A stretch of 58,283 nucleotides of DNA from positions 1 through 58,283 of the forward strand of contig JAXLYI010000006.1 in assembly GCA_046351555.1 (NCBI GenBank), in the 5' to 3' direction. Under the pieces are notes generated by a model, which did not search any database, was not told the DNA's origin, and was given only the letters and a program-made list of their open reading frames with translations. Position numbers and translations under genes: made by a program. Shown here piece after piece: positions 40,528 through 58,283 of this stretch (the first letter of the stretch is position 1; each line of letters starts with the position of its first letter). This DNA is from Polyangiales bacterium (GTDB lineage: Bacteria; Myxococcota_A; Polyangia; Polyangiales; Ga0077539).

Positions 40528-41775
40528 CTACACCGTCGCGGGGCGGGGGCGGAGCGCGCGCGCATACCGCACGACCTCGGGCGTCGCGGCGTATGCGCGC
40601 ACCGCGCCGCCGGCGAACGCGCGCCAGCCTGACGGCGCCGCCATGAGCGCTGCGGCCACCGCCGCCACCGGGAACGCCGCGAGCGCGTCGCCGCGCGCCG
40701 GGGTGAGCTCCTCCTCGCTCCCGTCGAAGAGCCCGCGCCGCCGCGCCACGTCGGCGAGCGCCCGCGCGACGTCGCGCCGCTGCCCCCTCGCCCGCGCCGC
40801 CGCCAGCAGCGCCTGCAACGCCATGTGCGTGCGCACGCCCGCGCGGCCGGTGGACACGCCGCCCGGGGCGCGGCCGAGGCTCACCGCGACGAGCAGCGCC
40901 GGGAGGTTGAGCCCGGCGGCGAGCGCGTTGCCCGTCTCGACGAGGCGGGGATTGCCGTCGATGAACCAGGGCCCCCCGGCGCCGTCGAGGATGAAGTCCA
41001 GCGAGAGGCCGCCGTGCCACCCGAGGCGCGCCCCGAGGCGCTCGACGTGCTCGCAGACCACCGCCGCGTCGAGCGACTCCTTGGCGATGTCGCCGCCGCC
41101 GACGCCCTCGCGGCGCTGGACGCACGCGTGCAGCCCCGCGAGCCGGCCTCGGTCGAACACGGCCTGCGCGCGCCCGAGCGCCCCCTCGACGAGCCGCTGC
41201 ACGACCGCGCCATCGCCGAGCGCCCCGCGGAGCGCGACGACGGCCGCGTCGAGCCCGCGCGCGTCGTCGACGCGGAAGGTGCCCGCGGTCGCGGTGCCGA
41301 ACGCCGCTTTCACGTACACCGGCAGCGGGCGCGCGGCGCGGCGGAGCGCGGCCTCGTCGAAGGCGACCTCGGTCGGCGGCGCGGGCGCCCCGAGCTCGGC
41401 GAGCAGGCCCGCGAAGGCGACCTTGCTCTGCACGCGTTCGAAGGCGTCGAAGTCGGGCAGGGCGAGGGCCGCATGCGCCGCGAGCTCGTCGCGCACGGCG
41501 GCGAAGAGGTAGGCTTGCTCGTGGGCGGGGTAGAGCGCGTCGAAGGCGCCGCCGCGCAGGGCGTCGCGCGCCGCCGCGAGGTAGCCCGCGGGGTCGTCGC
41601 CGAAGCGCGGCGCCGGGCGGACGCGCGCGCACCGCGAGGAGAAGCGCGCGAGGCAGAGGGGCGCGCCGTCGAGCACCTCGACCCGGCAGCCGGCGAGGCC
41701 GAGCGCGGTGAGCGACTCGCGCGCGGAGAGGCTCGACCCCTCGGACATCAGCACCCGGACGCCCGCGAGGTTCAT
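40528..41775 (-). CDS. ATP-grasp domain protein
   Basis: ATP-grasp fold hallmarks (VYVKAAFGTATAGTFRV, VVQRLVEG, SLDFILDGAGGPWFIDGNPRLVETG). Start trimmed to MNLAGVRVLM. Confidence 0.7.
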   Translation of the reverse strand: MNLAGVRVLMSEGSSLSARESLTALGLAGCRVEVLDGAPLCLARFSSRCARVRPAPRFGDDPAGYLAAARDALRGGAFDALYPAHEQAYLFAAVRDELAAHAALALPDFDAFERVQSKVAFAGLLAELGAPAPPTEVAFDEAALRRAARPLPVYVKAAFGTATAGTFRVDDARGLDAAVVALRGALGDGAVVQRLVEGALGRAQAVFDRGRLAGLHACVQRREGVGGGDIAKESLDAAVVCEHVERLGARLGWHGGLSLDFILDGAGGPWFIDGNPRLVETGNALAAGLNLPALLVAVSLGRAPGGVSTGRAGVRTHMALQALLAAARARGQRRDVARALADVARRRGLFDGSEEELTPARGDALAAFPVAAVAAALMAAPSGWRAFAGGAVRAYAATPEVVRYARALRPRPATV

Positions 41776-42974: not shown

Positions 42975-44030
42975 TCAGCGCCCGCGCGCGCAGGCCCCGC
43001 AGGCAAAGCGCCCCTGGGCGTGGGGCACGCAGCGCTCGCACGCGAGGTGGAGCCGGTCGTCGCAGAGGGCCGGCCGCGCCGTCGCGCCCCCGCAGAGCTC
43101 GCAGGCCAGCAGGTCGAGCGCCTGCGCCCCCGCCGGGAGCGTCACCCGCAGCTCGCGCTCGGCCTTGCGCCGCCGCAGCCGCAAGCGCACGCGCACCGCC
43201 GGCAGGAGCGCCCCCACCATCGCCACCGGGGCGGCCTCCACCTTCGGCGTGTACCGCAGCACCACGTCGCGCAGCCGCGCGTCGCGCTCGGCGACGACCG
43301 CGGCCGCGCGCGCCGCGAGGGCCGCGGCGTCCACCTTGCGCCGCCCCGCGCCCAGCTCCGCCACCAGGCCGGCGAAGTACTCCGTCATGCGCGCGTGGTC
43401 GCGCGCGTGGCGCCGCTCGATCGCCGCCAGCGGCTCCGCGGTCGCCGCCTCCAGCGCGGCGCGCACGCGCGCCGGCAGCGCGGCCGTGAGCGGCGCGAAG
43501 TCACCCGCCGCGGGGCGGAGCCCGCCGACGCCGCGCGCCGGGTCGAGCAGGGCCGTGACGCGCGCCTCGGGCTCGCCCCCGTCGGGGCCCACCGCCACGT
43601 CGAAGGCGCCCTCGTAGCGGTCGTCGGCCTCCACCGACCAGCCCACCGTCGCGCGGAGGTACGGCGCCTCCAGCGACGCCGCGTCGACGACGTCGGCGAG
43701 CCCGTTGCGCACCACCAGCCGCGCGGCCAGCGAGGTCGCCTGCGACGCCTTCGGCGCGTCGACCTCGGGCGCCGCCACCGCCCACGGCACCCCCGCCCGC
43801 GCCGACACGGTGAGCGCCTCGAGCAGCGGCGACCCGATGCCGCACGCGACGGCTGCGCCGTCGGCCGGCGACGCCGCGAGCGCCACCTCCTCGGGCAGCG
43901 CGAGGGCCCTCGCAAGCTCGGCCGGCAGGAGCGCCTCGACGCGGCCCTCGCGCGCGTCCACCAGGGCCCCGCGCGCGGCGAGGGCGCGGGCGGCGAAGTC
44001 GAGCGGGTCGGGGAGGTCGGCGGCGCTCAC
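42975..44030 (-). CDS. Hypothetical protein with a C-terminal Cys-rich zinc-ribbon, translationally coupled to the SNF2 helicase
   Basis: GTG start overlaps the helicase TGA stop (GTGA). C-terminus reads LLACELCGG...ALCDDRLHLACERCVPHAQGRFACGAC, with CxxC pairs. Confidence 0.6.
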   Translation of the reverse strand: MSAADLPDPLDFAARALAARGALVDAREGRVEALLPAELARALALPEEVALAASPADGAAVACGIGSPLLEALTVSARAGVPWAVAAPEVDAPKASQATSLAARLVVRNGLADVVDAASLEAPYLRATVGWSVEADDRYEGAFDVAVGPDGGEPEARVTALLDPARGVGGLRPAAGDFAPLTAALPARVRAALEAATAEPLAAIERRHARDHARMTEYFAGLVAELGAGRRKVDAAALAARAAAVVAERDARLRDVVLRYTPKVEAAPVAMVGALLPAVRVRLRLRRRKAERELRVTLPAGAQALDLLACELCGGATARPALCDDRLHLACERCVPHAQGRFACGACARGR

Positions 44031-46708
44031 GCTTCGAAGTCCCCCCCGAAGAGCGCCTCGTCGAGGCTGCGGGTCTTCTCGTAGCGGCCTCGGGCGGCGA
44101 GGAGCTCGGCGGCGAGGCGGTCGAAGGTCGCGTCGACCTCGGCGTCGGTCTTCGCGCGGGCCACCGACTGGACGAGCCAGTCCTCGAGGTCGCGCTCCTC
44201 GGCGAGGTTGCCGAGCACCATGTCCATCTCGCCCACCACGAGCTGGAAGAGCTGCACGCGGCGGTCGAGCACGTCGAGGACGCGCTCCTCGATCGTGTCC
44301 TTCGAACAGAGGTTGTAGACGTGCACCTCGCGGGTCTGCCCCATGCGGTGCAGGCGGCCGATGCGCTGCTCGATGGCCATGGGGTTCCAGGGGAGGTCGT
44401 AGTTGACGAGGACGTTGCAGTGCTGGAGGTTGTGGCCCTCGCTGCCGGCCGCGGTGGCGACCATCACCACGGCCCCGCCCGCGCGGAAGCGCTCGAGCGC
44501 CGCGGCCTTCTCCCGCGCGTCGAGCCCGCCGTGGAAGGCCACCGCCGCCACGCCCGCCCGCTCCACCGCCGCCACCACCTCGTCGAGCGTCTCGCGGTAC
44601 CGCGTGAACACCAGCGCCGGCTCGCGCCGCGCCGCCACCACCTGGAGGAGCGCCGCCGCCTTGCCCGACGCGCCCGCCGCCGTGGCGAGCCGCTCGATCA
44701 CCCCGAGCTTCTCGCGGACCTCCTTCTTGTCCGCCCCCTTCGCCTTCTCGCGCATCCGGGCGACGGTGGCCCGCACCGCGCGCGGCGACGAGCCCGCCTC
44801 CAGCAGCAGCGACGTGGCCGCGAGCTGGAGCCCCGCGTCCTCGTGGTGGATCCGCACGAAGGCCAGCACCATCGCGTAGAGCGCGCGCTCGTCGTCGGAC
44901 ATCGGCACGGCGACGGTGGTGACGAAGCGCGGCGGCAGCGCGAGGCCCGACTGGGCGCGGGTGTTGCGCACCATCACCTCGGCGAGCAGCGCGCGGAGGG
45001 CCTCGCGGTCCTTCGGGCGCGTCGGGTCCTTCGGGTCGACGAAGCGCTTGCGGAAGGCCGCCGGCGTGTCGAACTGCCCGGGCCGCAGCAGCGTGACGAG
45101 GTTGTAGATCTCCTCCAGGTCGTTCTCCACCGGCGTCGCCGTGACCAGGAGGAGGAAGCGCTGCTTGAGCCCGACGACGAGCTTGTAGCCCATGGTCGCG
45201 CGGTTCTTGATGTGGTGCGCCTCGTCGACGATCACCACGTCCCAGGGGTGCGCCTGCACCACCGGCGCGTGGCGCGCGGCGCGCGCGAGGGAGAGCGACG
45301 CCACCACCACCCCGGGCCCCGACCAGAAGCCCTCCGGGTCGTCCTTCGCGCGCGGGTCGTCGGTGGTGCGGGCGGCCACCCCCGCCTTCTGCGCGAGCTC
45401 CCCGGCCCACTGCGGCACCAGCGACGCCGGGGCGAGCACCAGCGCGCGCCGGGCCATGCCCCGCACCTGGTACTCGCGCAGCACCATCATCGCCTCCACC
45501 GTCTTCCCGAGGCCCACCTCGTCGGCCAGGATCCCTCGGCCCCGCAGCGCGCGCAGCACGCGCCGCACCGTCTCCGTCTGGTAGCGGTGCGGGACGACGT
45601 CGCGCATCGTCGCCACCGCCAGCAGCTCGTCGAACTGCGCCGCCGACGCGAGCCGTTGCGCGTCGAGCGCCAGCGCCACCGCGCCGAGCGGCGACGGCGG
45701 CGACGCCAGCACCGCGGCGAAGCGGGCGACGTCCAACGTCGGCAGCGCGCGGGCCGCGGGCGCGAAGGCCGGCGCCTCCGGGAGTGAAGGCGCGGCGGGG
45801 GCCTTCGGCGCAGCGGGCGCGGGCGCGGCGGGAGCGGGCGCAGCGGAAGCCACGGGTGCGGCGGAAGCGGCGGGCGCAGCGGAAGCCACGGGCGGGCGGC
45901 GCACAAGCAGGTCCCGCACCTCGCGGCGCTGGAGGAGCTCGCGCACGCGCCGCTCGAGGAGGGCCTTCGGCAGCCGCCCGAACTCCCCCGCCGGCAGCCG
46001 CGCGAAGGAGGCCGCGTCGCGCACCGACTGGGCGATCCGCTCGGCGAGGCGCGCGGGGTTGTTCACCGCGAGGCCCGCGTCGGCGAGGACGGCGACCGCC
46101 TTCTCCGCGGTGAGCCGGTGGGGCTTGCAGAGCGCCATCGCGGCGGCCAGCAGGTCGCTGCCGGTGAGGTGATCGGCGGCGTGGCGGGCGCCGAGCAGCG
46201 CCCGGAGCGTCGCGTCGTCGTCCGCGGGGGGCGGCTCCGTGGGCGGGGCCTTCGCGCGGCGCGACGGTGCCTTCACCCGTTCGGGCGTTGGGATGGGGAG
46301 CACCGGCATCCCCGCCGCCCCCCGCACGAGCGAGTGCCCGCGCGCGAGCGGGTCGACCGCGGCGGCCTTCACCTCCCAATAGCGCCGCTCGTACTCGCCC
46401 GCCCGCGCCGGGTCGTCGACGATCTGCGCGCGGAGCGCCATCAGCCAGAGCGCCGCGTCGGGGCCCTGTTGGAGGTCGACGGCGAGGGCGGTCTGGGGGC
46501 GACCGTGGGGCGGCCGGGCAAAGAAGTGCTCGACGCCAGCGTGCTGCTGGTTGTCCTCGGTCGACCGCGCGACGAGCGCGACGCGCCGGCAGTCGCACTC
46601 GGGGAGCGGGCAGTAGAAGTCGAAGACGTGGGCGACGCCGACGTCCGGGAGCGTGACGGAGATGGACCAGCCCCGCGGGTCGAGGCGCTGCCACGCGATC
46701 AGCGACAC
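44027..46708 (-). CDS. SNF2-family (RapA/HepA-like) DNA-dependent ATPase/helicase with a ~340-aa uncharacterised N-terminal region
   Basis: Motif I ADEVGLGKTVEAM, motif II VVIVDEAHHIKN, motif III LLLVTATPVEN, and helicase-C motifs VATAAGSEGHNLQ and QRIGRLHRMGQ. Confidence 0.85.
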   Translation of the reverse strand: MSLIAWQRLDPRGWSISVTLPDVGVAHVFDFYCPLPECDCRRVALVARSTEDNQQHAGVEHFFARPPHGRPQTALAVDLQQGPDAALWLMALRAQIVDDPARAGEYERRYWEVKAAAVDPLARGHSLVRGAAGMPVLPIPTPERVKAPSRRAKAPPTEPPPADDDATLRALLGARHAADHLTGSDLLAAAMALCKPHRLTAEKAVAVLADAGLAVNNPARLAERIAQSVRDAASFARLPAGEFGRLPKALLERRVRELLQRREVRDLLVRRPPVASAAPAASAAPVASAAPAPAAPAPAAPKAPAAPSLPEAPAFAPAARALPTLDVARFAAVLASPPSPLGAVALALDAQRLASAAQFDELLAVATMRDVVPHRYQTETVRRVLRALRGRGILADEVGLGKTVEAMMVLREYQVRGMARRALVLAPASLVPQWAGELAQKAGVAARTTDDPRAKDDPEGFWSGPGVVVASLSLARAARHAPVVQAHPWDVVIVDEAHHIKNRATMGYKLVVGLKQRFLLLVTATPVENDLEEIYNLVTLLRPGQFDTPAAFRKRFVDPKDPTRPKDREALRALLAEVMVRNTRAQSGLALPPRFVTTVAVPMSDDERALYAMVLAFVRIHHEDAGLQLAATSLLLEAGSSPRAVRATVARMREKAKGADKKEVREKLGVIERLATAAGASGKAAALLQVVAARREPALVFTRYRETLDEVVAAVERAGVAAVAFHGGLDAREKAAALERFRAGGAVVMVATAAGSEGHNLQHCNVLVNYDLPWNPMAIEQRIGRLHRMGQTREVHVYNLCSKDTIEERVLDVLDRRVQLFQLVVGEMDMVLGNLAEERDLEDWLVQSVARAKTDAEVDATFDRLAAELLAARGRYEKTRSLDEALFGGDFEA

Positions 46709-46776
46709 GCGTCAACCGCTACCACACCCCCAACCGGCGCCGCGAACCGAAACGGGAGGCGATCCCTGAGGCGCTC

Positions 46777-46960
46777 TGCGCCGACCCCGTGTCACGGGGC
46801 GACCGGTTCCGGGAGCGGTCCGCGCCGACCCCACCCCACCGGGCGACCGGTCCCGGGAGCGGTCTGCACCGACCCCGTCTCATGGATCGACCGGTTCCGG
46901 GAGTGGTTCGCGCCGACCCTGACCATCGCGCGACCGGTTCCGGGAGCGGTCGGCCGATGG
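46777..46960. repeat. Tandem array of about 4.5 copies of a 44-nt unit carrying the hairpin GACCG-GTTCCGGGAG-CGGTC, immediately upstream of the SNF2 gene
   Basis: Units begin at 46799, 46843, 46887 and 46930, with a partial unit before 46799. A ~33-nt conserved core CGACCGGTTCCGGGAGCGGTCYGCRCCGACCCY is followed by ~11 variable nt. Confidence 0.65.
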
Positions 46961-47099
46961 GAGCGTCAGCGCGATACCCACCCCGCCCGTCCCACCGCAG
47001 TGCGGGTTGACCGTCTGGCACCCCGGCGCCTCCAACGAGCACTCGGCAAACCGCTGCGCGTGAGTCGGCCGTGGGAAGGTGGGGACGCCTCGATGGGCC

Positions 47100-47245
47100 G
47101 GTCGTCGGGGTTCTCCAGCGCGACCCCCGCGGCGACGAACCGGTAGGACGGTGAAGCGCCGCACCGTCTCCCGCGTGTTGGGCGCGTACACCTTCCCGTA
47201 GCTCCGCTCGGAAGCATCATCGGCGTGATCCCCATGCAGGGCGAG
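47100..47245 (-). pseudogene. Roughly 140-bp fragment duplicating an internal 3'-region segment of the methyltransferase gene (copy of 51476-51615)
   Basis: About 95% nucleotide identity to 51476-51615. Translates to ERSYGKVYAPNTRETVRRFTV...FVAAGVALENPDDR, the same peptide as in the methyltransferase C-terminal region. Confidence 0.6.
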
Positions 47246-47319
47246 CGCACCAAAATCGCTTGAATTGCAGCCTCGCGGCGGGGTTGCCAGTTGCAGCCCA
47301 TGGGGCCACCCCAGACGCA

Positions 47320-50300
47320 GGGTCATGGGGCCGGGGAGAGGCGAGGCGTCACCCGTTGGTAACCCGGAGACGCCGCCTCGGCGTCGAGGGCCTCGAGGAG
47401 GGGCGCGGAGCGACCCGACGACGTCTCTTGCTGGATCATGGGGCCACCTCGGTGACGTCGGCGACGACGATCCCGGTGTTGCTCCTCGCCGCCAACGTCG
47501 CCAAGTTCGATCTCGCGACGACGCGCGCGAGGGTGCGAGTGCACCTTCGGCTGCGGCGCGCTCGGCGGCGGCGACGTTACGTTCGGCTTCTGCCGCGGGC
47601 AGGTACGTCTCGCCGTCATCGAAGTCGAACGCCGTTCTTCACAGGTCCACCGCGCTCTGCGCCAGCGCACGTCGTCGAACATCGCCAGACCCGCCTCTTC
47701 CTCCTGCTCATCGACGCGCGCGAAGTCGTCGATGATCAGCAGGTCCACCGACGACAGCGACGCCATCTCCGCGTCCCGCGAGTTGTCCAGCCGGCTCTGC
47801 CGCAGGCGCCGCAGCATCGCGTCGGCGCGCCGAAGCACCTGGTAGCCGTAGCGGAGACGCCATCCGCGAGATGCTTCGGCGCGAGGGCTCGCCAGCTCGC
47901 TCAGCACGCGCGCCTCGTAGGAGACCTTCTTCGTCCCACGCCTCCGGCGCATGCCCGGGTCGAGCCCGGCCTCGCGGCGCGCAGCCGCGCCCGACTCGCG
48001 GCGCGAGACCCGTCGCTCAGATCGTCAGCAGCACGTCCTCGACGGCCATGTCCTTCTCGGCGCCGTGAGGCCGCCTGGGCGCGCGTACGATCAAGCGTCC
48101 CAGCCGCAGCCGCTTGAGCACCGAGACCGCTCGGGCAAGAGGGCGCGCGGCGTCATCGCGGGTCCCCCTTGCGCTCGCTCGACGCGCCGGTGCGGAAGTG
48201 CTCAGCCGACCTCGCGAAGCGCGGGCGGAGCGCCACCACCTGCCGTCGCGCCGGCCGGCGTGCCCGGCGCCTGGGCCTGCTTGAGCATGCGGCCGAGCCG
48301 CGTGACGTCCACCACGTTCGAAGGCGAGCGCGTTGGAGACGCTCGACGCGCCCTGTCGCCGTGGGCGTCGCACAGCGCATCGAGCGTACGCCTGGCGCAT
48401 GCGCGTCCACGGCAGGGCCCTCCGACACCGCTCGGCGTACCGCCGATGTGGTCGCCGCGTCGGCGCGCCCTCGCATGCACCGCGTCGACGCTAGCACGCG
48501 AAGTCCGCCTTGCCCTCGGGTAGTCAGCGCGGTCGTCGTGCGCTTGCCGGCGCGGTGCGGACGTGCGCCTTGATCAGCTCGTGCCGAGGTACGCGGACGT
48601 CGTGCGGTCGACACCCGCACCGACTGGCCGATCTAGCGAGACCACCTCGCTCTGGAGGCTCCCTGCTGGAGATGCCGGACCGCGCGGATCGCCGCGCGGT
48701 CGCCGGGAAGGCGGGTGAGCTGCTGAGCAAGCACTCGCGGCGCGCGCTCGGCGCGCCGCGTCGATCGAGGCGATCGTCGCCTGCGCGCGCGACACGATGG
48801 GCGTCGCGCAGGCCCCGGCTGGAGGGCAGGGCGCGGGTACGGCACGTCGTGTCCGAGATGCTCCGGCACCGCGAGAGGTCGGGAGGTCGACCAGCGTAAG
48901 CTCCGCGCGCTGCTGGAGTCGCGCCCCGAGCTCGGCGCGATGGCGCGGTGGGTGGGGCTGGTGACGACCGGGGTGCTCCTCGGCCGTCGGCGACCCGCTC
49001 GACTTCCACCACGCGGGCGCCTACGAGAGGAAGGCGTGCGGGCTCAACCCCTCAAGGGCACGACAACGGCACGGCCGCGCGCGGCGGGGCTTCATCACCC
49101 GCGCGGCTCCGCGTGCGCGCGCGCAAGTACCTGGCCACGTATTCCAGTGCTGCGGTGGAAGGCCGCGACCGCGCGACATGCGCCTGAGTCGAGCGCCGCC
49201 GGAGCTGGCGCGCAAGGGCAAGGTCTCCGCGCTGGTGGCGCTGATGCGCAAGGCCGTCAAGCGCGCCCTCTGGCACCTGCGCCGTGGGCAGGACTACGAG
49301 GCGGGCAAGCTCTTCGATCTGCGTCGACTCACGCTCACGCCCCGGCGCGAGGCCACGCTCATCACCGAGTCCGACGCGGGCGGCGGTACCGTGCCCGCCG
49401 ACGCACGACGATGCGACGACGACGGCGCCCGCGCGCGATGGCGCGTCGGGCGCGGCGGCCGCGTCCGGAGGCGACGGCGACTAACGCGACGAAGGCCACG
49501 ACGAAGGCCGCGACGAAGGCGGCGACGAAGGCCACGACGAAGATCCGCGACGGGCGACGACGCCGCGGCGGTGAGGCCGCGCGCGACGACGCATCGAAGG
49601 CGACGCGCGCGCACGCGAAGCGCGAGGCCCGGGGCGGCAAGCGACGGGGATCGCGCGAGGAGCCGACGGCGCGGCACCGGAACGCGGGCCGCGTGCGGGC
49701 GCGTTCGATGGCGCCGCCCCGGGCGCTGCTTCGGCAGGCGCTGGGGCGCATCGCCCGCAGCCGCGGGAGCAGGTCGTCGCCCGCCCTCGTCGGCCGCGTC
49801 ACTCATCTGCCCGAGGTCGTGCGGGGTGACGACGGCGTCGCGCACGTGCTCGCCGAAGCGAACGGGCGTCGGCACGGGGGCCGGCGGCGCTGGCGCCGTG
49901 CTCGCACAGCAGGCCCAGCGCGCCGGGGTCGTCGGTGCCGCGGCGTCCCGGCCACCGCCTCGCGCAGCGCCTCGGCGCCTAGAGGTCGAGCGCCACGATG
50001 GAGCGCGCCACGGCGTTGCCCAGGTTGCGCCCGGCGTCGAGCCAGCGCGCCAGCTCGCGTCGATGCCGGGCGCCTCGGCGCGCAGCCGGTCGCGCCCCTT
50101 GAGCCCCTGGCCGCGCGGCGCTCGGCCACCAGCTCGGCGCGGTGCTCGCGTGCTCGGAACGACCGTCGGCGGCCCCAGGATCGCGCGTGCGGGCGACCTC
50201 CGTACGCGCCGTCCAACAGCTGCACGCGCGCGTCGTCGGCGGCCATCGTCAGTGCGGCCCGCCCACGCCGGCGGCACCGGTAGAGGTTGGTGTCGAGCCG

Positions 50301-51130
50301 CGCGAAGGCCGTCCGGTCGATCGCCACGGGCACGACCTGCTCGGGCGGGGCATCGGGTCGGGCAGCGCCAGCAGCTTCGTGCGCCCTCGGCGAAGGCGCC
50401 GACGGTGCGATCGGGCAGGCGCGGGTGGGGCCGCCGGCGCCACCTCGCGCAGGAACTCCCCGAGCTCGCGGTTGCCCTGCGCCACGTCGCGATCGCGCCT
50501 GCCAGGAAGCGGTCGCGACAGGTAGCGACATCGCGCGCTCCACGCGGCCTTCTCCGCGTGCGCCCGCACCGTGCAGAGCCGCGCCTGCGTGCAGAAGGCC
50601 GCGGAGAGCTCGACCACCGCGGGGTGGAAGCCGCGCCTCAGCACCGGTGCGCGGGTTGTCGAAGAGCCACTGCCGCGGCGACCCTCCGAAGAAGGCGTGG
50701 CGCGGATCGGGAGCGGCGCAGCGAGGCGCGTCGGTCCCAGACGCACTCGGCGAAGAGCATCCGCGACCAGGAGAGCACCATCACGAAGAGCCACAGCCCG
50801 CGGCGCCCGCGGCCTCGCCGCCGACGAAGGCCAGTCGACCTGCGCCTGCTCGCCGACGAGGGTCTCGGTGCGCAGGAAGGCGCCCGCGGCGAGGCTGGCG
50901 CGCCGCGCGACGCCCCGCAGCGTGCGCACCGAGCCCTTGTAGCGGGGCGAGCATGTCGGCCGCGGCGCGCAGCGGTAGCGCGCCGGTCTGCGCGATGCCG
51001 AAGGACTCGCTCCCGATCCACGCGCAGAGTCGAGGACAGCGCGCCGGCGTCGACGCGAGGGCGCCGACGCGCGAAGAGCGTGTCGGGACCTTCATGCGCC
51101 CGAACGGGCGCGAAGGCACTCAACGCGGCG
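47320..51130 (-). mobile_element. Heavily degraded IS21-family element (istA transposase and istB helper remnants with many frameshifts), plus ~1.7 kb of unassignable decayed sequence
   Basis: IstB-like remnant at 47323-47952 (LRRLRQS...VDLLIIDDFARVDEQEEEAGLAMFDDV). IstA-like remnants between about 49800 and 51120 in different frames (LVGEQAQVDWP; LFVMVLSWSRMLFAE; LDTNLYRCRRRGRAALTMAADDARVQLL). No intact ORF. Confidence 0.5.
49486..49542. repeat. 12-nt tandem repeat (GCGACGAAGGCC-like), about 4.75 copies
   Basis: Reads GCGACGAAGGCCACGACGAAGGCCGCGACGAAGGCGGCGACGAAGGCCACGACGAAG. Confidence 0.7.
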
Positions 51131-51218
51131 CGCGGATTTTTCGAGGCTCTGCCGATTCCTACTTGCCTATGACAGCGCACGGGCTCTACCTCCCGCACGA
51201 ACCATCCCCCCGTCAGGA

Positions 51219-53344
51219 TCAGTACGGCCCGAGGAAGCGCTCGCCGTTGAAGTGTATCATGTGGGTCGGGGCGTCGGCGCACCACACCTCGGTAAGCACC
51301 GGCACCCGCGACATCTCCCGCTCCTTCGCGTAGCGGGCGCGGAGCGTCTCCACCGTGGCCAGCCACCGCGCGAGCGCGCCGCTCCAACGCGCCGTCCCAT
51401 AGCGTTGGAGCACGGCGAGCACCCCCGGCTCGATCTGGTAGACCGCCTTGGGGCTGTTGGTCGGGCGCGACCGGTCGTCGGGGTTCTCCAGCGCGACCCC
51501 CGCGGCGACGAACCGGTGGACGGTGAAGCGCCGCACCGTCTCCCGCGTGTTGGGCGCGTACACCTTCCCGTAGCTCCGCTCGAAGAACTGCATCATCGGC
51601 GTGATCCCCATGAGCGGCGCCGACGCCTCCGCCCAGGGACGCTCCGCCGTCAGGTCGACGAGCGCGAGGAGCGTGAGCGCCGACCGCTCGTTCTGCTGCT
51701 CGCGCGGCAGTCCGATGGCCTCCAACACGGACAGGGCCTCGTCGATGCGACGCCTCGCCGCCACCGGGTCGATGGCCGTTGGTTTCTTGTCTCCCATACG
51801 AAACAACACCTCGTCCACGGCGCGATCGACCGCCCCTTGCGTGGCGAGCGACTTCCCCGCGGCATCGCCGAGCGCCTCGAGCTGTGCGCGGGTCGGGTAC
51901 GGCATCTTGCGGAGGTCGGTCGCGTTCACCTGCGTGTGCCCGCTCCAGGCGCGGAAATGCGCGTCGACGAGCGTCGAGTTGAGCCACACCGTCAGCCCGC
52001 GCGCGAGCCGCTCGGGCACCCCAGCGCCGTCGCAATGGAACACGTTGAGGTGGTTTTCGAACCCGACGCGCCCCCGCGCGACCGCCGCCGGTTCGTAGAG
52101 GGCGGCGACGATGCGGCGCGGCTCCTCCTTCGAGGAGAAGCGCTTCGTCAAGACGTAGGTGCCCTCCGGCAGCAGGAGGGCGGCGGTCTCCGCGTTGTCG
52201 TCGATCGCGTTGGGCTTGCGCGATCCCTCGCGCGGCCACGCCACCCCTCCGCCCGCGAGGTGCAGCGGGTAGATGAGCGGGGCCGTGGTGCGCGCCGGTC
52301 GGTCGTGGAGGTGGGCGCGGGCGCGGAAGTCCACCACGCGGCCGGTCGACGCCTGGAGCCCGAGGTCGGCGAGCGTCGAGCGGAACGTCGCCATCCGCTC
52401 GCTCACGGCGCCGCCGAGTCCGTCGGACACGATGTGGACGATGCGTTCGGGGTCGTCGGGTCGCACGACCTCCGCGAAGGGAACCTCCCGCACGAGCGGC
52501 GCAGGGTCCTCGGGGCAGGTCGCCGACGAGACCGTGACGCGCCCGCGCGGCGCCCCGTCCTTCACCGCGTGGAAGATCACGGTCTCCTGGAGCACGTCGT
52601 CGTCGGCGAAGGCGCGGTCACGCCGCTCGAAGACGTGGAGCCGCAGGAGCCTCATGCGCGCGAGGAAGCGCTCGCGGAAGGGGCGGAAGTAGGGGCCGTT
52701 GCAGAAGCTCCGCGGGGTGATGGCGACCAAGCTCGCCGCCGGGCTCGAGCAGGTCGACCGCGACCGCGAGGAAGGCCGTGTGGAGGTTGCTCGTCTCGAG
52801 GCCGATCCGCTGGAGCGCGCGCCTCGGGCGAGTCCGCGCGGATCTTGTGTTACGGCGGGTTGAGGATCGCGGCGTTGAAGGCGCCTCGCTGCGTCGCGAA
52901 GAGGCCGCCGTCGAGCGCGCCCACCCCCGAGGCGATGAAGTTTTCGACGTGGACCCGGGCCTCGACCCGGAGGCCGGCGGCCGCGCCGTGCTCCTCGCAC
53001 GCGGTGAGCGTCTCGCGCAGGTACCGCGCGAGCGTCGGGTCGACCTCCCACGCGTCGACCGTGATGGATGTCGGGCGCGCGGGACGTCCGGCGAACGCCT
53101 CGACGGCAGCGGCGGTGAGTGCGCCGACACCAGCGCCCGCGTCGAGCAGGCGGACCTCCGCCGCGTCGGTTCGCAGGAGCGATGCCATGAACGACGCCAC
53201 CGCCGCGGGGGTCATGTACTGCCCGAGCTCGGCCCGCCGCGCCGGGGAGAGCTGGCGCATGGCGTCGACGCGCGCCACGTCGGCGACCTCGCCGGGGTGG
53301 CGGCCCGATGCGAGGAGGGAGGTGGCGAAGCCGGGTTTGCGCAT
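51219..53344 (-). pseudogene. Eco57I-family (gamma-class, NPPY) N6-adenine DNA methyltransferase, inactivated by an in-frame TAA and two frameshifts
   Basis: Motif I LLDAGAGVGAL and motif IV FNAAILNPP are followed directly by TAA. The downstream conserved blocks KIRADSPEARA / ALQRIGLETSNLHTAFLAVAVDLLEPGGEL / VAITPRSFCNGPYFRPFRERFL sit in three different frames. The junctions imply an indel in a GCGCGC run and a 1-nt insertion. Confidence 0.65.
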
Positions 53345-53407: not shown

Positions 53408-54451
53408 TCACCAGGTGTCGGGGAAGTTGCCGCGCGACATCGGCTGCGGCGGCGGCTTCGGCACGGCGACCGCGTCGGCGGCCTTCTTGCGGATCACCTG
53501 CGTCCCCTCCTGCTTGAGCGTCTTGATGGGGCCCTTCACCCACGAGCCCGGGCCCGACACCGCGCCGATCGCGCCCTGCACGCCGTCGCCGATCTTCTGC
53601 CCCATCTCGGGCGACGCGCCGAGGTACTCCGCGCCCGCGCCGATCGCCTGCGACGTGTACGTGCGCTGCGGCACGCCCGTCCAGATCTGCTTCACCGCGG
53701 CCCAGCCCCGGTCGCCCGCGTTGGCGATGAGCGCGCCGCCCGCCACCTGCCCGACGCCCGTCGGCGTCGACGCGAGCCCGACGCCCACCGTCCCCTGCCC
53801 CACCGCGCCCGCGAGGTCGATGCCGCCCGCGACGCGCGGGTACGCCGCGCGGAAGTCCTGGTAGCGCCCCCACGTCTGCCGCATCCCGTACTGCGCCAGC
53901 GACTCGTTGGGACGGCGCGCGAACGACGACGGCTCCTGCGCCGGCTGCTGCGGCTGCGCGGGCTGCTCAGGGGGCTGCGCCGCGGCCTGCTCCTGCGGCG
54001 TCTCGGGCTTCGGCTCGGGGTTCGGGTCGCTCTTCGGCTTGCCGTCCTCGCCGACCTCGTTGGTGGGCTCCGTCCCCTCGTCGAACACCGCCTTGCCCTT
54101 GGTGTTCTTGTCGTTCATCTCGTGCTCGTCCTTGTGACGAATCACGTTCTGGCCCTCGGCGCGCACCGTGGGGGAGTGCTCGACGGGCTCGGTCTTGCCG
54201 CCGCCCGCGTGGGTGCCCGACACCACGCCCTCGCCCGTGCCGCCCTCGTCGCCCTCGACGCCCTGGATGTAGCTCTGCTTCGTGAAGACGCACTGGTTGG
54301 TGGCCCGCACCGTCGGCGTCACCATGCAGGCGTTCTGGTACACCGACACGATCTGGTAGGGCACCGGCGCCGTCGGCGACTTGCAGACGTCGGGGTAGCT
54401 GCTCACGACGAGCGCGCGGGGCGTCTTGCGGGTGAGTTCGAGCTCGCTCAC
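53408..54451 (-). CDS. T6SS PAAR-like (DUF4150) effector with a Pro/Glu/Gln-rich linker and a glycine-zipper-rich C-terminal domain
   Basis: N-terminal DUF4150 pattern YPDVCKSP...GDEGGTGEGVVSGTHAGGGKTEPVEHSPTVRAEGQNVIRHKDEHEMNDKN. C-terminal GxxxG-rich segment (AGAVGQGTVGVGLA, GVGQVAGGALIANAG, AIGAGAEYLGA, GDGVQGAIGAVSG). Confidence 0.7.
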   Translation of the reverse strand: MSELELTRKTPRALVVSSYPDVCKSPTAPVPYQIVSVYQNACMVTPTVRATNQCVFTKQSYIQGVEGDEGGTGEGVVSGTHAGGGKTEPVEHSPTVRAEGQNVIRHKDEHEMNDKNTKGKAVFDEGTEPTNEVGEDGKPKSDPNPEPKPETPQEQAAAQPPEQPAQPQQPAQEPSSFARRPNESLAQYGMRQTWGRYQDFRAAYPRVAGGIDLAGAVGQGTVGVGLASTPTGVGQVAGGALIANAGDRGWAAVKQIWTGVPQRTYTSQAIGAGAEYLGASPEMGQKIGDGVQGAIGAVSGPGSWVKGPIKTLKQEGTQVIRKKAADAVAVPKPPPQPMSRGNFPDTW

Positions 54452-55476
54452 AGCGGGGCCTCCTGCTGGTCGGGGTCGTTGAAGTGCATGCGCAGCTCGG
54501 CCACGCGCACCGCGGGCTCCTCACGCACGGTCAACCGCGAGGTGACGTAGACGAGGCGCCGCGCGAGGTCGATCACCACGGTGTCGAGCTCCATCGGGCG
54601 CATCTCGATCTCGCCCGACTCGTAGCGGAGCAGCGTGAACATCCCGTGGCCCGGCAGCCGGCAGCGCAGCGGCCCCTCGGGGAGCAGGCCCTCGAGCGCG
54701 ATGTCGGCGTCGCTGCGGAGCATCCCGCGCACGGTGAGGTCGGGGTGCGCGCCGTTCCAGTACTCCGAGCGGAAGTCCTTCGGGAGCACGGGCCAGGTGT
54801 GCTTCACCCACGCCTCGTCGTAGGTGCCTGCGAGCGCGAGGCGCGGCGCCCACGCGCGCCCGATGGGGCCGTAGCCCACCGGGGCGGGCTCGGCGAAGGG
54901 GTCGGTGAGGGGCGCGTCGGCCGACTCGATGCGCGGGGCTTCGAAGCGGTCGACGTCCTCCACCGACCAGGGGCGCGCGAAGCCCACGCCCACGGGGTTG
55001 CTCGCGCACGCCTCCTCGCGGTCGCCGCGGCGCGCGACGCCGCCGTGCGCGAGCTCGTAGCAGAGCGGGACGCGGTCGACGGGCTCCGGGTCGGTGAGCC
55101 GCCACGCCTCGCCCTCGCGCACCCACCAGCGTGGGCCCGTGACGCGCAGACGCTTCTCCACCGGACCCACGCGCACGAGCGTCTCCCACGACGGGAGCGC
55201 CTCGCCGTTGGGCGCGCAGGCGTCGCCCACCACCGTCACGTCGGTGAAGGGCTTGTAGGGCGCGAGGTCGCTCTCGAACACCGGGCTCGACGCGCCGGGC
55301 TCGCCGCGGAACACCTCCGCGGTCTGGAGGGGCGTCTGCTCGCGCGCGAGGCGCAGCACCTTGCCGTGCTCCAGGCGCAGCGTCATGCGGCTGACCACGA
55401 CGTGGAAGGGTTCGTCGTCGACGGTGTGCGACTCGAACACCAGCATCGGGAAGGGCGTGTGGTTGCGGGGCCTCAC
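54448..55476 (-). CDS. DUF2169-family T6SS adaptor protein
   Basis: 342-aa protein whose stop overlaps the DUF4150 effector start by 4 nt. Size, position and sequence feel match DUF2169 adaptors that pair with DUF4150 effectors. Confidence 0.6.
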   Translation of the reverse strand: MRPRNHTPFPMLVFESHTVDDEPFHVVVSRMTLRLEHGKVLRLAREQTPLQTAEVFRGEPGASSPVFESDLAPYKPFTDVTVVGDACAPNGEALPSWETLVRVGPVEKRLRVTGPRWWVREGEAWRLTDPEPVDRVPLCYELAHGGVARRGDREEACASNPVGVGFARPWSVEDVDRFEAPRIESADAPLTDPFAEPAPVGYGPIGRAWAPRLALAGTYDEAWVKHTWPVLPKDFRSEYWNGAHPDLTVRGMLRSDADIALEGLLPEGPLRCRLPGHGMFTLLRYESGEIEMRPMELDTVVIDLARRLVYVTSRLTVREEPAVRVAELRMHFNDPDQQEAPL

Positions 55477-55512
55477 GACGTCGAGGCTACCGCAGGGCAG
55501 ACGCGACGGGGA

Positions 55513-56805
55513 TCAGAACTGGGCCTTCTCGGTGCTCTCGGTGAGCGCGAGGGTGCTGGCCTTGCCGCCGGAGATCACCTCGGCGACGGCGTCGAAGTAG
55601 CCGGTGCCCACCTCGTGCTGGTGGCGCGTCGCGGTGTAGCCCTGCTTCTCCGCGTTGAACTCCGCCGTCTGCACGTCGGAGTAGGCCGCCATCCCGCGGT
55701 TCTTGTAGTCCGCGGCGAGGTTGTACATGGCGAGGTTGAGCGTGTGGAAGCCCGCCAGCGTGACGAACTGGAACTTGTACCCCATCGCCCCGAGCTCGCG
55801 CTGGAACTTCGCGATCGTCGCCTCGTCGAGGTGCTTGCGCCAGTTGAAGCTCGGCGAGCAGTTGTACGCGAGGAGCTTGCCCGGAAACTTCTTGTGCACG
55901 CCCTCGGCGAACTGCCTGGCCTCGTGGAGGTCGGGCGTGGAGGTCTCGCACCAGCAGAGGTCGGCGTAGGGGGCGTAGGCGACGGCCCGCGCGATCGCGC
56001 AGTCGATGCCGCCCTTGAGGGTGTAGAAGCCCTCGGCGGTGCGGCCCTTCGCGCGGTCGATGAAGGCGTGGTCGCGCTCGTCGTGGTCGCTGGTGAGGAG
56101 CTTCGCGCTGTCGGCGTCGGTGCGGGCGACGACCAGCGTCGGCACGTCCATCACGTCGGCGGCGAGGCGCGCGGCGACGAGCGTGCGGATGAACTGCGAC
56201 GTCGGCACGAGCACCTTGCCGCCCATGTGCCCGCACTTCTTCTCGGCCGCGAGCTGGTCTTCGAAGTGGACGCCCGACGCGCCCGACTCGATCATGTGCT
56301 TCATGAGCTCGTAGGCGTTGAGCGGGCCGCCGAAGCCGGCCTCGGCGTCGGCCATGATGGGGGCGAACCAGTGGGTGTCGCGCTTGCCCTCGGAGTGGTC
56401 GATCTGGTCGGCGCGGGTGAGGGCCTGGTTGACCTTCTTCACCACGTTGGGCACCGAGTCGACGGGGTAGAGCGACTGGTCGGGGTACATCTCGCCGGCG
56501 GTGTTGGCGTCGGCGGCCACCTGCCAGCCCGAGAGGTAGATGGCCTTGAGCCCCGCGCGCACGGCCTGGACGGCCTGGTTGCCGGTGAGGCAGCCGAGGG
56601 AGGCGACGAAGGGCTCGGTCTGGAGGAGGCTCCAGAGGCGGCGCGCGCCCATCTGGGCCCACGTGTGGTCGATGCGCACCGAGCCGCGGAGGCGGGCGAC
56701 GTCGGCGGGCGAGTACGGGCGGGTGATGCCCGCGAAGCGCCCCTCGGGGGCGTCGGTGACGTACGTCGCGGCGGCGTTGGAGGTCTTGTCCGAGGGCGTC
56801 ATCAT
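55513..56805 (-). CDS. aceA: Isocitrate lyase
   Basis: Isocitrate lyase signature KKCGHMGGK with flanking conserved blocks ([23 protein letters not shown]). 431 aa. Confidence 0.9.
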
Positions 56806-56819
56806 GGTCGTTCTCCTGG

Positions 56820-58283
<1,464 letters not shown>

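What the first reader, a model, noticed from the sequence alone, without database searches (positions are those of the whole stretch)
47100..51615. Near-identical ~140-bp direct repeats bracket the IS21 remnant; one copy is an internal piece of the methyltransferase gene
Segments 47100-47245 and 51476-51615 are about 95% identical. The second lies inside the methyltransferase coding region; the first is an orphan fragment on the far side of the IS remnant, next to the 44-nt array. This is far too long for an IS21 target-site duplication. It points instead to a duplication or recombination between two methyltransferase copies, or a deletion that removed a second methyltransferase next to the SNF2 gene.
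Basis: seen in the sequence. Interest (0 to 1): 0.5.

Follow-up and report, generated by a model that had tools for sequence, protein, structure and literature searches.

The report
Orphan gene patch beside IS cluster
A 140-base piece of a dead restriction-modification gene is copied once more 4.2 kb away, at the edge of a 4.1-kb block of insertion-sequence debris that a near-identical strain lacks; this is an ordinary rearrangement scar in a poorly sequenced stretch, not a functional element.

Summary
The repeat is real. Positions 47098-47236 and 51471-51612 match with 0 substitutions and 3 small indels (E 2e-59).

Copy B lies in the BsuBI/PstI HTH domain, which is the restriction-enzyme half of a fused Eco57I-type methyltransferase-endonuclease gene of about 840 aa. 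That gene is a pseudogene here, with two frameshifts and most of the nuclease domain deleted.

A metagenome contig (L001) is identical over 5.8 kb around the site. It carries the same pseudogene but lacks window 47065-51173 (4109 bp), and only 2 nt (CT) are shared at the junction. Copy A sits inside this block, 33 bp from its end.

The block is a patchwork:
- an IS21 istA plus the start of istB;
- an IS110-family transposase remnant on the other strand;
- a second, unrelated istB fragment;
- copy A;
- 33 bp of unknown origin.

Against intact IS relatives the block has 75 indels but only 24 substitutions per 1.4 kb, while 8.2 kb of flanks have no indels. This looks like uncorrected long-read noise, so copy A is probably an exact copy.

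It is not a target-site duplication, and nothing supports a lost second methyltransferase. The most likely origin is illegitimate, IS-associated recombination. Interest is low.

The parts
51471..51612 (-). Copy B: resident copy of the repeat. It encodes ...MGITPMMQFFERSYGKVYAPNTRETVRRFTVHRFVAAGVALENPDDRS within the BsuBI/PstI HTH domain of the fused R-M pseudogene.
   Evidence: alignment; PF17728 at residues 434-570 of ORF 51219-53051; P0002 residues about 578-625
47098..47236 (-). Copy A: orphan copy of the same 140 bp. It has 0 substitutions and 3 small indels relative to copy B, and the indels break the reading frame twice. It lies inside the block that is absent from L001.
   Evidence: (weak PF17728 hit on the fragment)
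47065..51173 (.). The 4109-bp block that is present in the window and absent from the near-identical contig L001. It is a patchwork of IS fragments, copy A and a 33-bp filler. It has many indels while the flanks have none.
   Evidence: junctions; 2-nt CT overlap; indel profile
47065..47097 (.). 33 bp of unknown origin between copy A and the right-hand junction.
   Evidence: no source found in the window; no significant similarity to the gene, the 44-nt array or the IS end
47237..47322 (-). 86-nt spacer between the stop of the istB-like fragment and copy A. It could hold an IS21 right terminal region, but no significant inverted repeat with the left end was found.
47323..47960 (-). IstB-like AAA+ ATPase fragment of a second IS21-family lineage. 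It is 61% identical to a Sorangium IstB-family protein and unrelated at BLAST level to the IstB of the istA relatives.
   Evidence: NF038214 E 2e-4; PF01695 proteins, E 3e-11
49178..49399 (+). C-terminal tail of an IS110-family (DEDD/Transposase_20) transposase on the opposite strand. The whole gene probably spans about 48020-49400, but the rest is not readable.
   Evidence: 27 hits, best E 4e-17, aligned at about residues 385-440 of 430-480-aa proteins; those proteins carry PF01548+PF02371; NF033542, weak
49701..49806 (-). First 35 or so codons of the istB that belongs with the istA (MSDAADEG..GDDLLPRLRAM). Homology to intact relatives stops near 49750-49700.
49799..51095 (-). The IS21-family istA gene. 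Its aligned bases are 98% identical to intact elements L005/L006, but it is interrupted by about 75 small indels (61 deletions, 14 insertions).
   Evidence: (E 2e-100 to 489-aa IS21 transposases)
51096..51174 (-). Left terminal region of the block, TGTCATAGGCAAGTAGGAATCGG..., which has lower GC and ends 82 nt upstream of the istA ATG. Its position fits an IS21 left end, but similarity to the relatives' IRL (TGTAGACGGCAG...) is not statistically significant.
51219..53344 (-). Fused Eco57I-type N6-adenine methyltransferase + BsuBI/PstI HTH + BsuBI/PstI nuclease gene, here a pseudogene. It has frameshifts near 52825 and near 52700-52740. About 133 codons of the nuclease domain are deleted, with the junction near 51294. 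All of these defects are shared with L001.
47063..47064 (-). CT dinucleotide found at both edges of the block (also at 51174-51175). It is the only sequence shared between the two junctions.

Best explanation
Copy A is a non-functional scar. It is a 139-bp patch copied from the HTH-coding part of the adjacent, already dead, fused restriction-modification gene. It lies at the edge of a 4.1-kb block of IS debris containing an IS21 istA, an IS110-family element and a second istB fragment. That block is an insertion/deletion polymorphism between two otherwise identical strains.

The block was joined to the chromosome by illegitimate recombination, meaning end-joining or template switching, and not by IS21 transposition or homologous recombination. 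The patch was either copied from the template 300-440 bp away during that event or was brought in with the block.

The 96% identity and the 'decayed' look of the IS are mostly uncorrected long-read sequencing noise. Copy A is therefore really an exact, recent copy.

Shown: the repeat, its domain location, the block and its junctions, the patchwork content, and the indel signature. Inferred: the joining mechanism, the polarity (gain versus loss), and that the indels are sequencing noise.
For: 1. L001 matches the window on both sides without a single gap (20 mismatches in 8163 nt). There are no mismatches within 484 nt to the left or 5.3 kb to the right of the junction. L001 skips exactly 47065-51173, and only CT is shared at the junction.
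2. Copy A lies inside the block, and L001 has a single copy of the 140 bp.
3. There is no 4-8-bp duplication, no inverted-repeat pair at the block ends, and the right edge is not an IS end.
4. The block holds pieces of at least three different IS elements.
5. In the block's istA region, a comparison with intact relatives gives 1299 matches, 24 mismatches and 75 indels. The indels are not enriched in homopolymers, and about 45-50 gaps appear against each of three independent relatives. Copy A shows the same pattern, with 3 indels and 0 substitutions, while the flanks have 0 indels.
6. Short-read polishing is known to leave errors in repeats (PMC8812927 abstract).
7. No other remnant of the R-M gene occurs in the window.
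Against: No reads are available, so the noise interpretation rests only on the mutation spectrum. The 33 bp after copy A and the 86 nt before it have no identified source. Whether the block was gained in this strain or lost in L001 cannot be decided. A patchwork with six or more internal breakpoints is easier to build slowly than in one step. The source genome could not be found, so a donor locus elsewhere could not be looked for.
Confidence: 0.55

Rival explanations
1. Flank carry-over by aberrant IS21 movement. An IS21-family element once sat inside the HTH-coding part of this gene, or of an identical second copy. Its right tip was defective, so the next move used the good left end and a break 173 bp out in the flank. 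This carried copy A + 33 bp to the new site 45 bp beyond the gene, as a local hop.
For: The block begins with a TG...-type, lower-GC terminal region 82 nt before the istA ATG. The istB-like gene ends 86 nt before copy A, which is about where a right end would be. No right inverted repeat can be found, as expected if the tip is lost. The new site is only 300-440 bp from the template. Structural work suggests IstA without proper IstB action could give duplications shorter than 5 bp, of 2-3 bp (PMC10122671), and the junction shares 2 nt.
Against: The 33 bp after copy A are not the sequence that follows copy B in the gene, so the donor cannot be the resident gene as it is now. The similarity of the left end to the relatives' IRL is not significant. 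The element is itself a mosaic of two IS21 lineages plus an IS110-family element, and so is unlikely to be transposition-competent.
Confidence: 0.2
2. Assembly artefact. The block, or its placement, comes from one or a few noisy or chimeric long reads used as backbone or bridge, and it does not represent the genome of the population. The orphan copy would then have no biological meaning.
For: The limits of the indel-rich sequence coincide exactly with the limits of the segment absent from L001. The flanks are at Illumina-level agreement, with 0 gaps in 8163 nt. The error profile resembles raw nanopore sequence: deletions exceed insertions, there are few mismatches, and there is no homopolymer bias (own knowledge).
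Against: The sequence returns to the very next base of the chromosome after 4.1 kb. This is what a real insertion in a DNA molecule looks like, not a ligation chimera. The block contains genuine IS genes that are 98% identical at aligned positions to elements from other samples.
Confidence: 0.15
3. The locus once held a second copy of the methyltransferase (R-M) gene next to SNF2. IS insertions and deletions eroded it to 140 bp, and L001 later lost the whole remnant by a microhomology deletion.
For: A single deletion between CT dinucleotides would explain L001 simply. A patchwork of IS fragments is typical of slow in-situ accumulation.
Against: There are no other R-M gene remains in the block or the window. 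There are 0 substitutions between the copies even though the gene family is otherwise divergent, the best homolog being 77% identical. R-M and SNF2 adjacency is absent from 80 related loci. The flanks are identical between the strains, so any long in-situ history must predate a very recent loss.
Confidence: 0.08

Closest known systems
IS21-family insertion with its target-site duplication (e.g. IS5376, IS21)
   Same: IstA transposase and IstB-type ATPase genes lie between the two copies. The repeats are direct and lie on either side of the IS genes.
   Different: IS21-family duplications are about 5 bp and abut the element ends (PMC10122671). Here the repeat is about 140 bp, one copy is 297 bp away from the element, only 2 nt are shared at the true junction, and no terminal inverted repeats are detectable.
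Flank transduction by one-ended or read-through transposition (ISEcp1, IS91/ISCR, L1 3' transduction; own knowledge)
   Same: A stretch of former flanking DNA sits next to one end of a mobile element at a new site.
   Different: No functional surrogate end is recognisable. The last 33 bp do not continue the source gene. IS21 is not known to me to do this.
Templated or filler insertions at end-joining or template-switch (MMBIR/FoSTeS-type) junctions (own knowledge)
   Same: A short patch is copied in direct orientation from a template a few hundred bp to a few kb away. There is minimal (2-nt) microhomology at the outer junction. The insert is a patchwork.
   Different: Microhomology at the internal breakpoints cannot be examined, because the sources of the neighbouring pieces are unknown. 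The event was not observed directly.
Fused type II R-M enzymes of the BsuBI/PstI (AplI-like) family: Eco57I-type MTase + PF17728 HTH + PF06616 nuclease, about 840 aa
   Same: The resident gene has this architecture and is 77% identical to the intact 840-aa P0002. P0002 matches PADLOC model PDLC03359 end to end.
   Different: The gene here is dead, with two frameshifts and about 133 codons of the nuclease domain missing.

Membership tests
IS21 target-site duplication | Short direct repeat (4-8 bp; 5 bp for IS5376) immediately abutting both element termini | tested here: not met
   The repeat is 139-142 bp. Copy B is 297 bp from the block edge. Only CT is shared at the junction (PMC10122671).
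IS21-family insertion sequence (element between the copies) | IstA DDE transposase gene | tested here: met
   The stitched IstA has E 2e-100 to 489-aa IS21 transposases. The DNA is 98% identical at aligned bases to intact L005.
IS21-family insertion sequence (element between the copies) | Cognate IstB helper gene directly downstream of and overlapping istA | tested here: not met
   Only about 35 codons of the cognate istB remain (49806-49701). The istB-like piece at 47960-47323 is from another lineage and lies 1.7 kb further on.
IS21-family insertion sequence (element between the copies) | Pair of terminal inverted repeats (5'-TG...CA-3') | tested here: inconclusive
   The left end starts TGTCATAGG, 82 nt before istA. 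No significant match was found to any right-end candidate or to the relatives' IRL/IRR.
IS110-family element (nested in the block) | DEDD + Transposase_20 recombinase | tested here: inconclusive
   Only the C-terminal tail is readable (49178-49399). It has 27 hits to IS110-family proteins, best E 4e-17. Pfam finds nothing on the raw frames.
Second (tandem or paralogous) copy of the R-M/methyltransferase gene | Collinear homology beyond the 140 bp, or other fragments of the gene nearby | tested here: not met
   Homology stops sharply at both ends. tblastn with the intact P0002 finds only the resident gene and copy A.
Second (tandem or paralogous) copy of the R-M/methyltransferase gene | A further copy elsewhere in the genome | not testable with these tools
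   The source genome is not in genome contigs, metagenome contigs or the protein-position index.
Fused BsuBI/PstI-type type II R-M gene | Eco57I-type MTase + PF17728 HTH + PF06616 nuclease in one ORF | tested here: met
   The homologs are single 800-860-aa proteins with all three domains. The window gene aligns along P0002 except for the deleted residues about 685-816. The gene is inactivated by frameshifts.
Templated or filler insertion at an illegitimate-recombination junction | Nearby template in the same orientation, microhomology at junctions, no element-specific end features | tested here: inconclusive
   The template lies 297-437 bp from the junction in direct orientation, with 2-nt microhomology at the outer junction. 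The internal junctions cannot be assessed.
DISARM/BREX-like defence system (SNF2 + methyltransferase) | Conserved co-occurrence of the SNF2 gene with the methyltransferase gene | tested here: not met
   None of 80 related SNF2 loci has a P0002-like gene within 8 kb. The SNF2 protein hits DrmD/BrxH models only as a generic SNF2 helicase.

The most novel reading that the evidence does not exclude
The block is a real, very recent single event in which an IS cluster was integrated at a CT dinucleotide while a repair or replicative polymerase switched templates and copied 139 bp from the gene 300 bp away. That would be a bacterial example of a templated patch insertion. Alternatively, it could be an off-target capture by the IS110-family bridge recombinase encoded inside the block, whose model member IS621 uses a CT core dinucleotide (PMC11208160).
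Probability: 0.08. Interest if true: 0.4.

Novelty: already known. Interest (0 to 1): 0.12.

Why it matters
It matters little for biology. It is a scar in a dead restriction-modification locus, and it shows that IS clusters and neighbouring gene fragments get shuffled by illegitimate recombination.

Its practical value is as a caution in three respects:
- The 'IS21 remnant' and the '95% identity' are probably products of uncorrected long-read sequence.
- The orphan fragment should not be annotated as evidence of a second methyltransferase.
- The 4.1-kb block should be re-checked against reads before any evolutionary inference is drawn from it.

Tried and rejected
- **Target-site duplication:** rejected on length and position.
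- **Terminal inverted repeats of the block or of the IS:** none is significant.
- **Other copies of the IS left end in the window:** none.
- **Source of the 33-bp filler, or of the block's unknown parts, elsewhere in the window, including noisy copies of neighbouring genes:** nothing above shuffled controls.
- **Rest of the intact IS (L005 istB and right end) against the rest of the block:** not homologous.
- **Second istA in 49700-48200:** none detectable.
- **Pfam/NCBIfam on raw frames of the block:** only weak IS21 and IS110 signals.
- **Plasmid collection:** one weak istA hit, and no hit for the IS110-like peptide.
- **Rfam on 46600-51700:** nothing.
- **Exact 41-mer of the repeat in genome contigs and metagenome contigs:** no match.
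- **Exact-protein look-ups for other strains:** only L001 was found.
- **SNF2 + methyltransferase as a conserved defence module (DISARM-like):** rejected.
- **Natural pseudogene decay as the cause of the indels:** judged unlikely. Indels outnumber substitutions 3:1, show no homopolymer bias, and the flanks are identical to L001.
Full report
**Observation**

The window has 75.4% G+C. A pairwise alignment, the repeat finder and a self-BLAST all show one outstanding direct repeat, 47098-47236 against 51471-51612. Over 143 columns there are no mismatches and three gap openings (E 2e-59). It breaks down into exact blocks of 47, 65 and 23 nt, separated by a 1-nt insertion and two 2-nt gaps in copy A. 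Similarity ends abruptly on both sides.

**What copy B belongs to**

On the minus strand, the ORF 51219-53051 carries a complete BsuBI/PstI HTH domain (PF17728, E 3e-48). It is followed by only the last 28 or so positions of the BsuBI/PstI nuclease domain PF06616. A database search returned thousands of single proteins of 800-860 aa with the architecture Eco57I-type methyltransferase + PF17728 + PF06616. The best intact one, P0002, is 77% identical. P0002 matches a PADLOC type II model end to end, and its residues 531-840 match a type II restriction-enzyme model.

tblastn of P0002 against the window shows the gene in three frames: 53344-52826, 52824-52681 and 52742-51294. Residues about 685-816 are then missing, followed by the natural C-terminus ...THMIHFNGERFLGPY* ending at 51219. 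The GC3 phase switches at the same places. The gene is thus a fused R-M pseudogene with two frameshifts and a nuclease-domain deletion. Copy B encodes residues about 578-625, in the HTH domain of the endonuclease half. It is not in the methyltransferase domain.

**A strain without the orphan**

The closest database protein, P0001 (99% identical), is encoded on an 8.2-kb metagenome contig, L001. In L001 the same truncated gene is followed after 400 bp by the same SNF2 gene.

L001 aligns to window 53055-51174 and to 47064-40784 without a single gap. It has 4 and 16 mismatches in those two segments respectively, and it has only one copy of the 140 bp. The mismatches are clustered. There are none within 484 nt to the left or 5.3 kb to the right of the junction. 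L001 shares both frameshifts and the nuclease deletion.

Relative to L001, the window therefore carries an extra 4109 bp (47065-51173). Only the dinucleotide CT is shared between the two junctions. Copy A lies inside this block, 33 bp from its low-coordinate edge. Copy B lies outside it, 297 bp from the other edge.

**What the block is**

Read on the minus strand, the block contains the following:

1. About 80 nt of lower-GC sequence starting TGTCATAGGCAAG (51174-51096).
2. An IS21-family istA (51095-49799). A hand-stitched translation hits intact 489-aa IS21 transposases at E 2e-100. The DNA aligns to the intact elements L005/L006, L011/L012 and L007-L010.
3. The first 35 or so codons of the cognate istB (49806-49701), after which homology to the relatives stops.
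4. About 1.7 kb that holds, on the plus strand, the C-terminal tail of an IS110-family transposase (49178-49399). It has 27 hits in an exhaustive search, best E 4e-17, and the hit proteins carry PF01548 + PF02371. The rest of this gene cannot be read.
5. An IstB-like ATPase fragment (47960-47323). It is closest to Sorangium IstB-family proteins and unrelated at BLAST level to the relatives' IstB.
6. An 86-nt spacer.
7. Copy A.
8. 33 bp with no identifiable source.

The intact relatives are about 3.1-kb elements. They have TGTAGACGGCAG... inverted repeats and an extra 700-nt upstream ORF that the window lacks. Neither the block nor the IS21 part has a detectable inverted-repeat pair, and the resemblance of the block's left end to the relatives' IRL is not significant. 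The block is a patchwork of at least three IS elements plus the gene patch. It is not a simple IS21 copy.

**The indel signature**

Across 1.4 kb of istA, the window differs from intact L005 by 24 mismatches, 61 deletions (106 nt) and 14 insertions (26 nt). The deletions are mostly 1-2 nt. They are not enriched in homopolymers: 16 of 61 are in homopolymer context, against 40% of positions. Roughly the same number of gaps (45-50) appears against three independent relatives, so the indels are specific to the window copy. In-frame stretches are almost identical to the intact protein.

Copy A shows the same spectrum, with three indels and no substitution. The 8163 nt of flanks have no indel at all against an Illumina-type contig.

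Natural pseudogene decay gives many more substitutions than indels, and its indels concentrate in repeats (own knowledge). Decay in place is also incompatible with flanks that are identical between the strains. The simplest reading is that the block is uncorrected long-read sequence. It could be a long-read bridge or backbone across repeats, or a low-coverage variant. Short-read polishing is known to leave errors in repeats (PMC8812927). On this reading copy A is an exact copy of copy B, and the IS is not as decayed as it looks. This is inference; no reads were available.

**Mechanism**

An IS21 target duplication is excluded. IS21-family insertions are bounded by about 5-bp repeats at the element tips (PMC10122671). 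Homologous recombination between the two copies would have removed the gene's 3' end, which L001 retains. L001 is therefore not a repeat-mediated deletion product.

The 2-nt junction, the lack of end features and the patchwork content all point to illegitimate recombination. Either the block was inserted, or it was deleted in L001, and the polarity is open. I consider three possible origins for copy A:

- It was copied from the template only 300-440 bp away during the joining event (a template switch or filler). I favour this because of the proximity and the exact identity.
- It is former flanking DNA of the right-hand IS21 fragment, carried over from a donor site inside this gene or an identical copy. 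That would require the 33 bp to continue the gene, and they do not.
- It is the last relic of a second R-M gene. This is unsupported: there are no other remains, it is absent in L001, and none of 80 related SNF2 loci has such a gene alongside.

A fourth possibility is that the block is an assembly artefact. This is weakened by the exact return to the next chromosomal base, but only reads can exclude it.

**Comparison and verdict**

The locus combines well-known things: a fused BsuBI/PstI-type R-M gene (dead), IS21- and IS110-family debris, and a short captured or templated duplicate. Nothing suggests a function for the orphan copy. No RNA family matches the region.

One coincidence deserves mention. 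CT flanks the block, and CT is the core dinucleotide of the IS110-family bridge recombinase IS621 (PMC11208160). However, the IS110 remnant is internal to the block, and the link cannot be tested.

The finding is real but ordinary, and part of its appearance is probably sequence noise. Interest is low.

Noticed in passing
window 51219-53344 (-): The 'methyltransferase' is a fused MTase-HTH-nuclease type II R-M gene (about 840 aa family with thousands of members). Here it is inactivated by two frameshifts and by loss of about 133 codons of the nuclease domain. The same defects are present in the metagenome contig L001.
   Followed up: yes
window 46771-46951: An array of 4.1 copies of a 44-nt unit (77% matches) lies between the SNF2 start and the block. 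Each unit contains the palindromic core GACCGGTTCCGGGAGCGGTC. It is present without change in L001, so it is independent of the block. Its function is unknown.
   Followed up: partly
window 51658, 51667, 51702 and 40788-41758: The 20 differences between the window and L001 are clustered. Three lie within 45 nt just upstream of copy B (two of them G>T, non-synonymous). Sixteen lie in one gene at 40788-41758 (about 1.6% divergence). The 5.8 kb in between, apart from the block, is identical. This suggests a recombination tract or a variable gene.
   Followed up: no
window 49178-49399 (+), probably about 48020-49700: A remnant of an IS110-family (bridge-RNA-type) transposase lies on the opposite strand, between the two IS21-derived parts. 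A 12-nt tandem repeat (CGACGAAGGCCA x4.7) lies just beyond it at 49487-49542.
   Followed up: partly
L005, L011, L007 (relatives of the istA): The intact relatives are about 3.1-kb IS21-family elements. They have an extra Cys-rich ORF of about 700 nt upstream of istA and TGTAGACGGCAG terminal repeats. In L007 the istB is cut short and followed by three tyrosine-recombinase genes (a recombinase trio).
   Followed up: partly
window 44027-46708 (-) and L013-L092: The SNF2 helicase scores as a generic DrmD/BrxH-like protein in PADLOC, but it has no methyltransferase partner in 80 related loci. Its closest relatives are Polyangiales/Myxococcales MAGs (63-82% identity), so the window probably comes from an unsampled member of that group.
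   Followed up: partly
window 53408-58283 (-): Upstream of the R-M pseudogene lie a PAAR-like toxin-domain gene and a DUF2169 gene (type VI secretion-associated), followed by isocitrate lyase and malate synthase genes.
   Followed up: no
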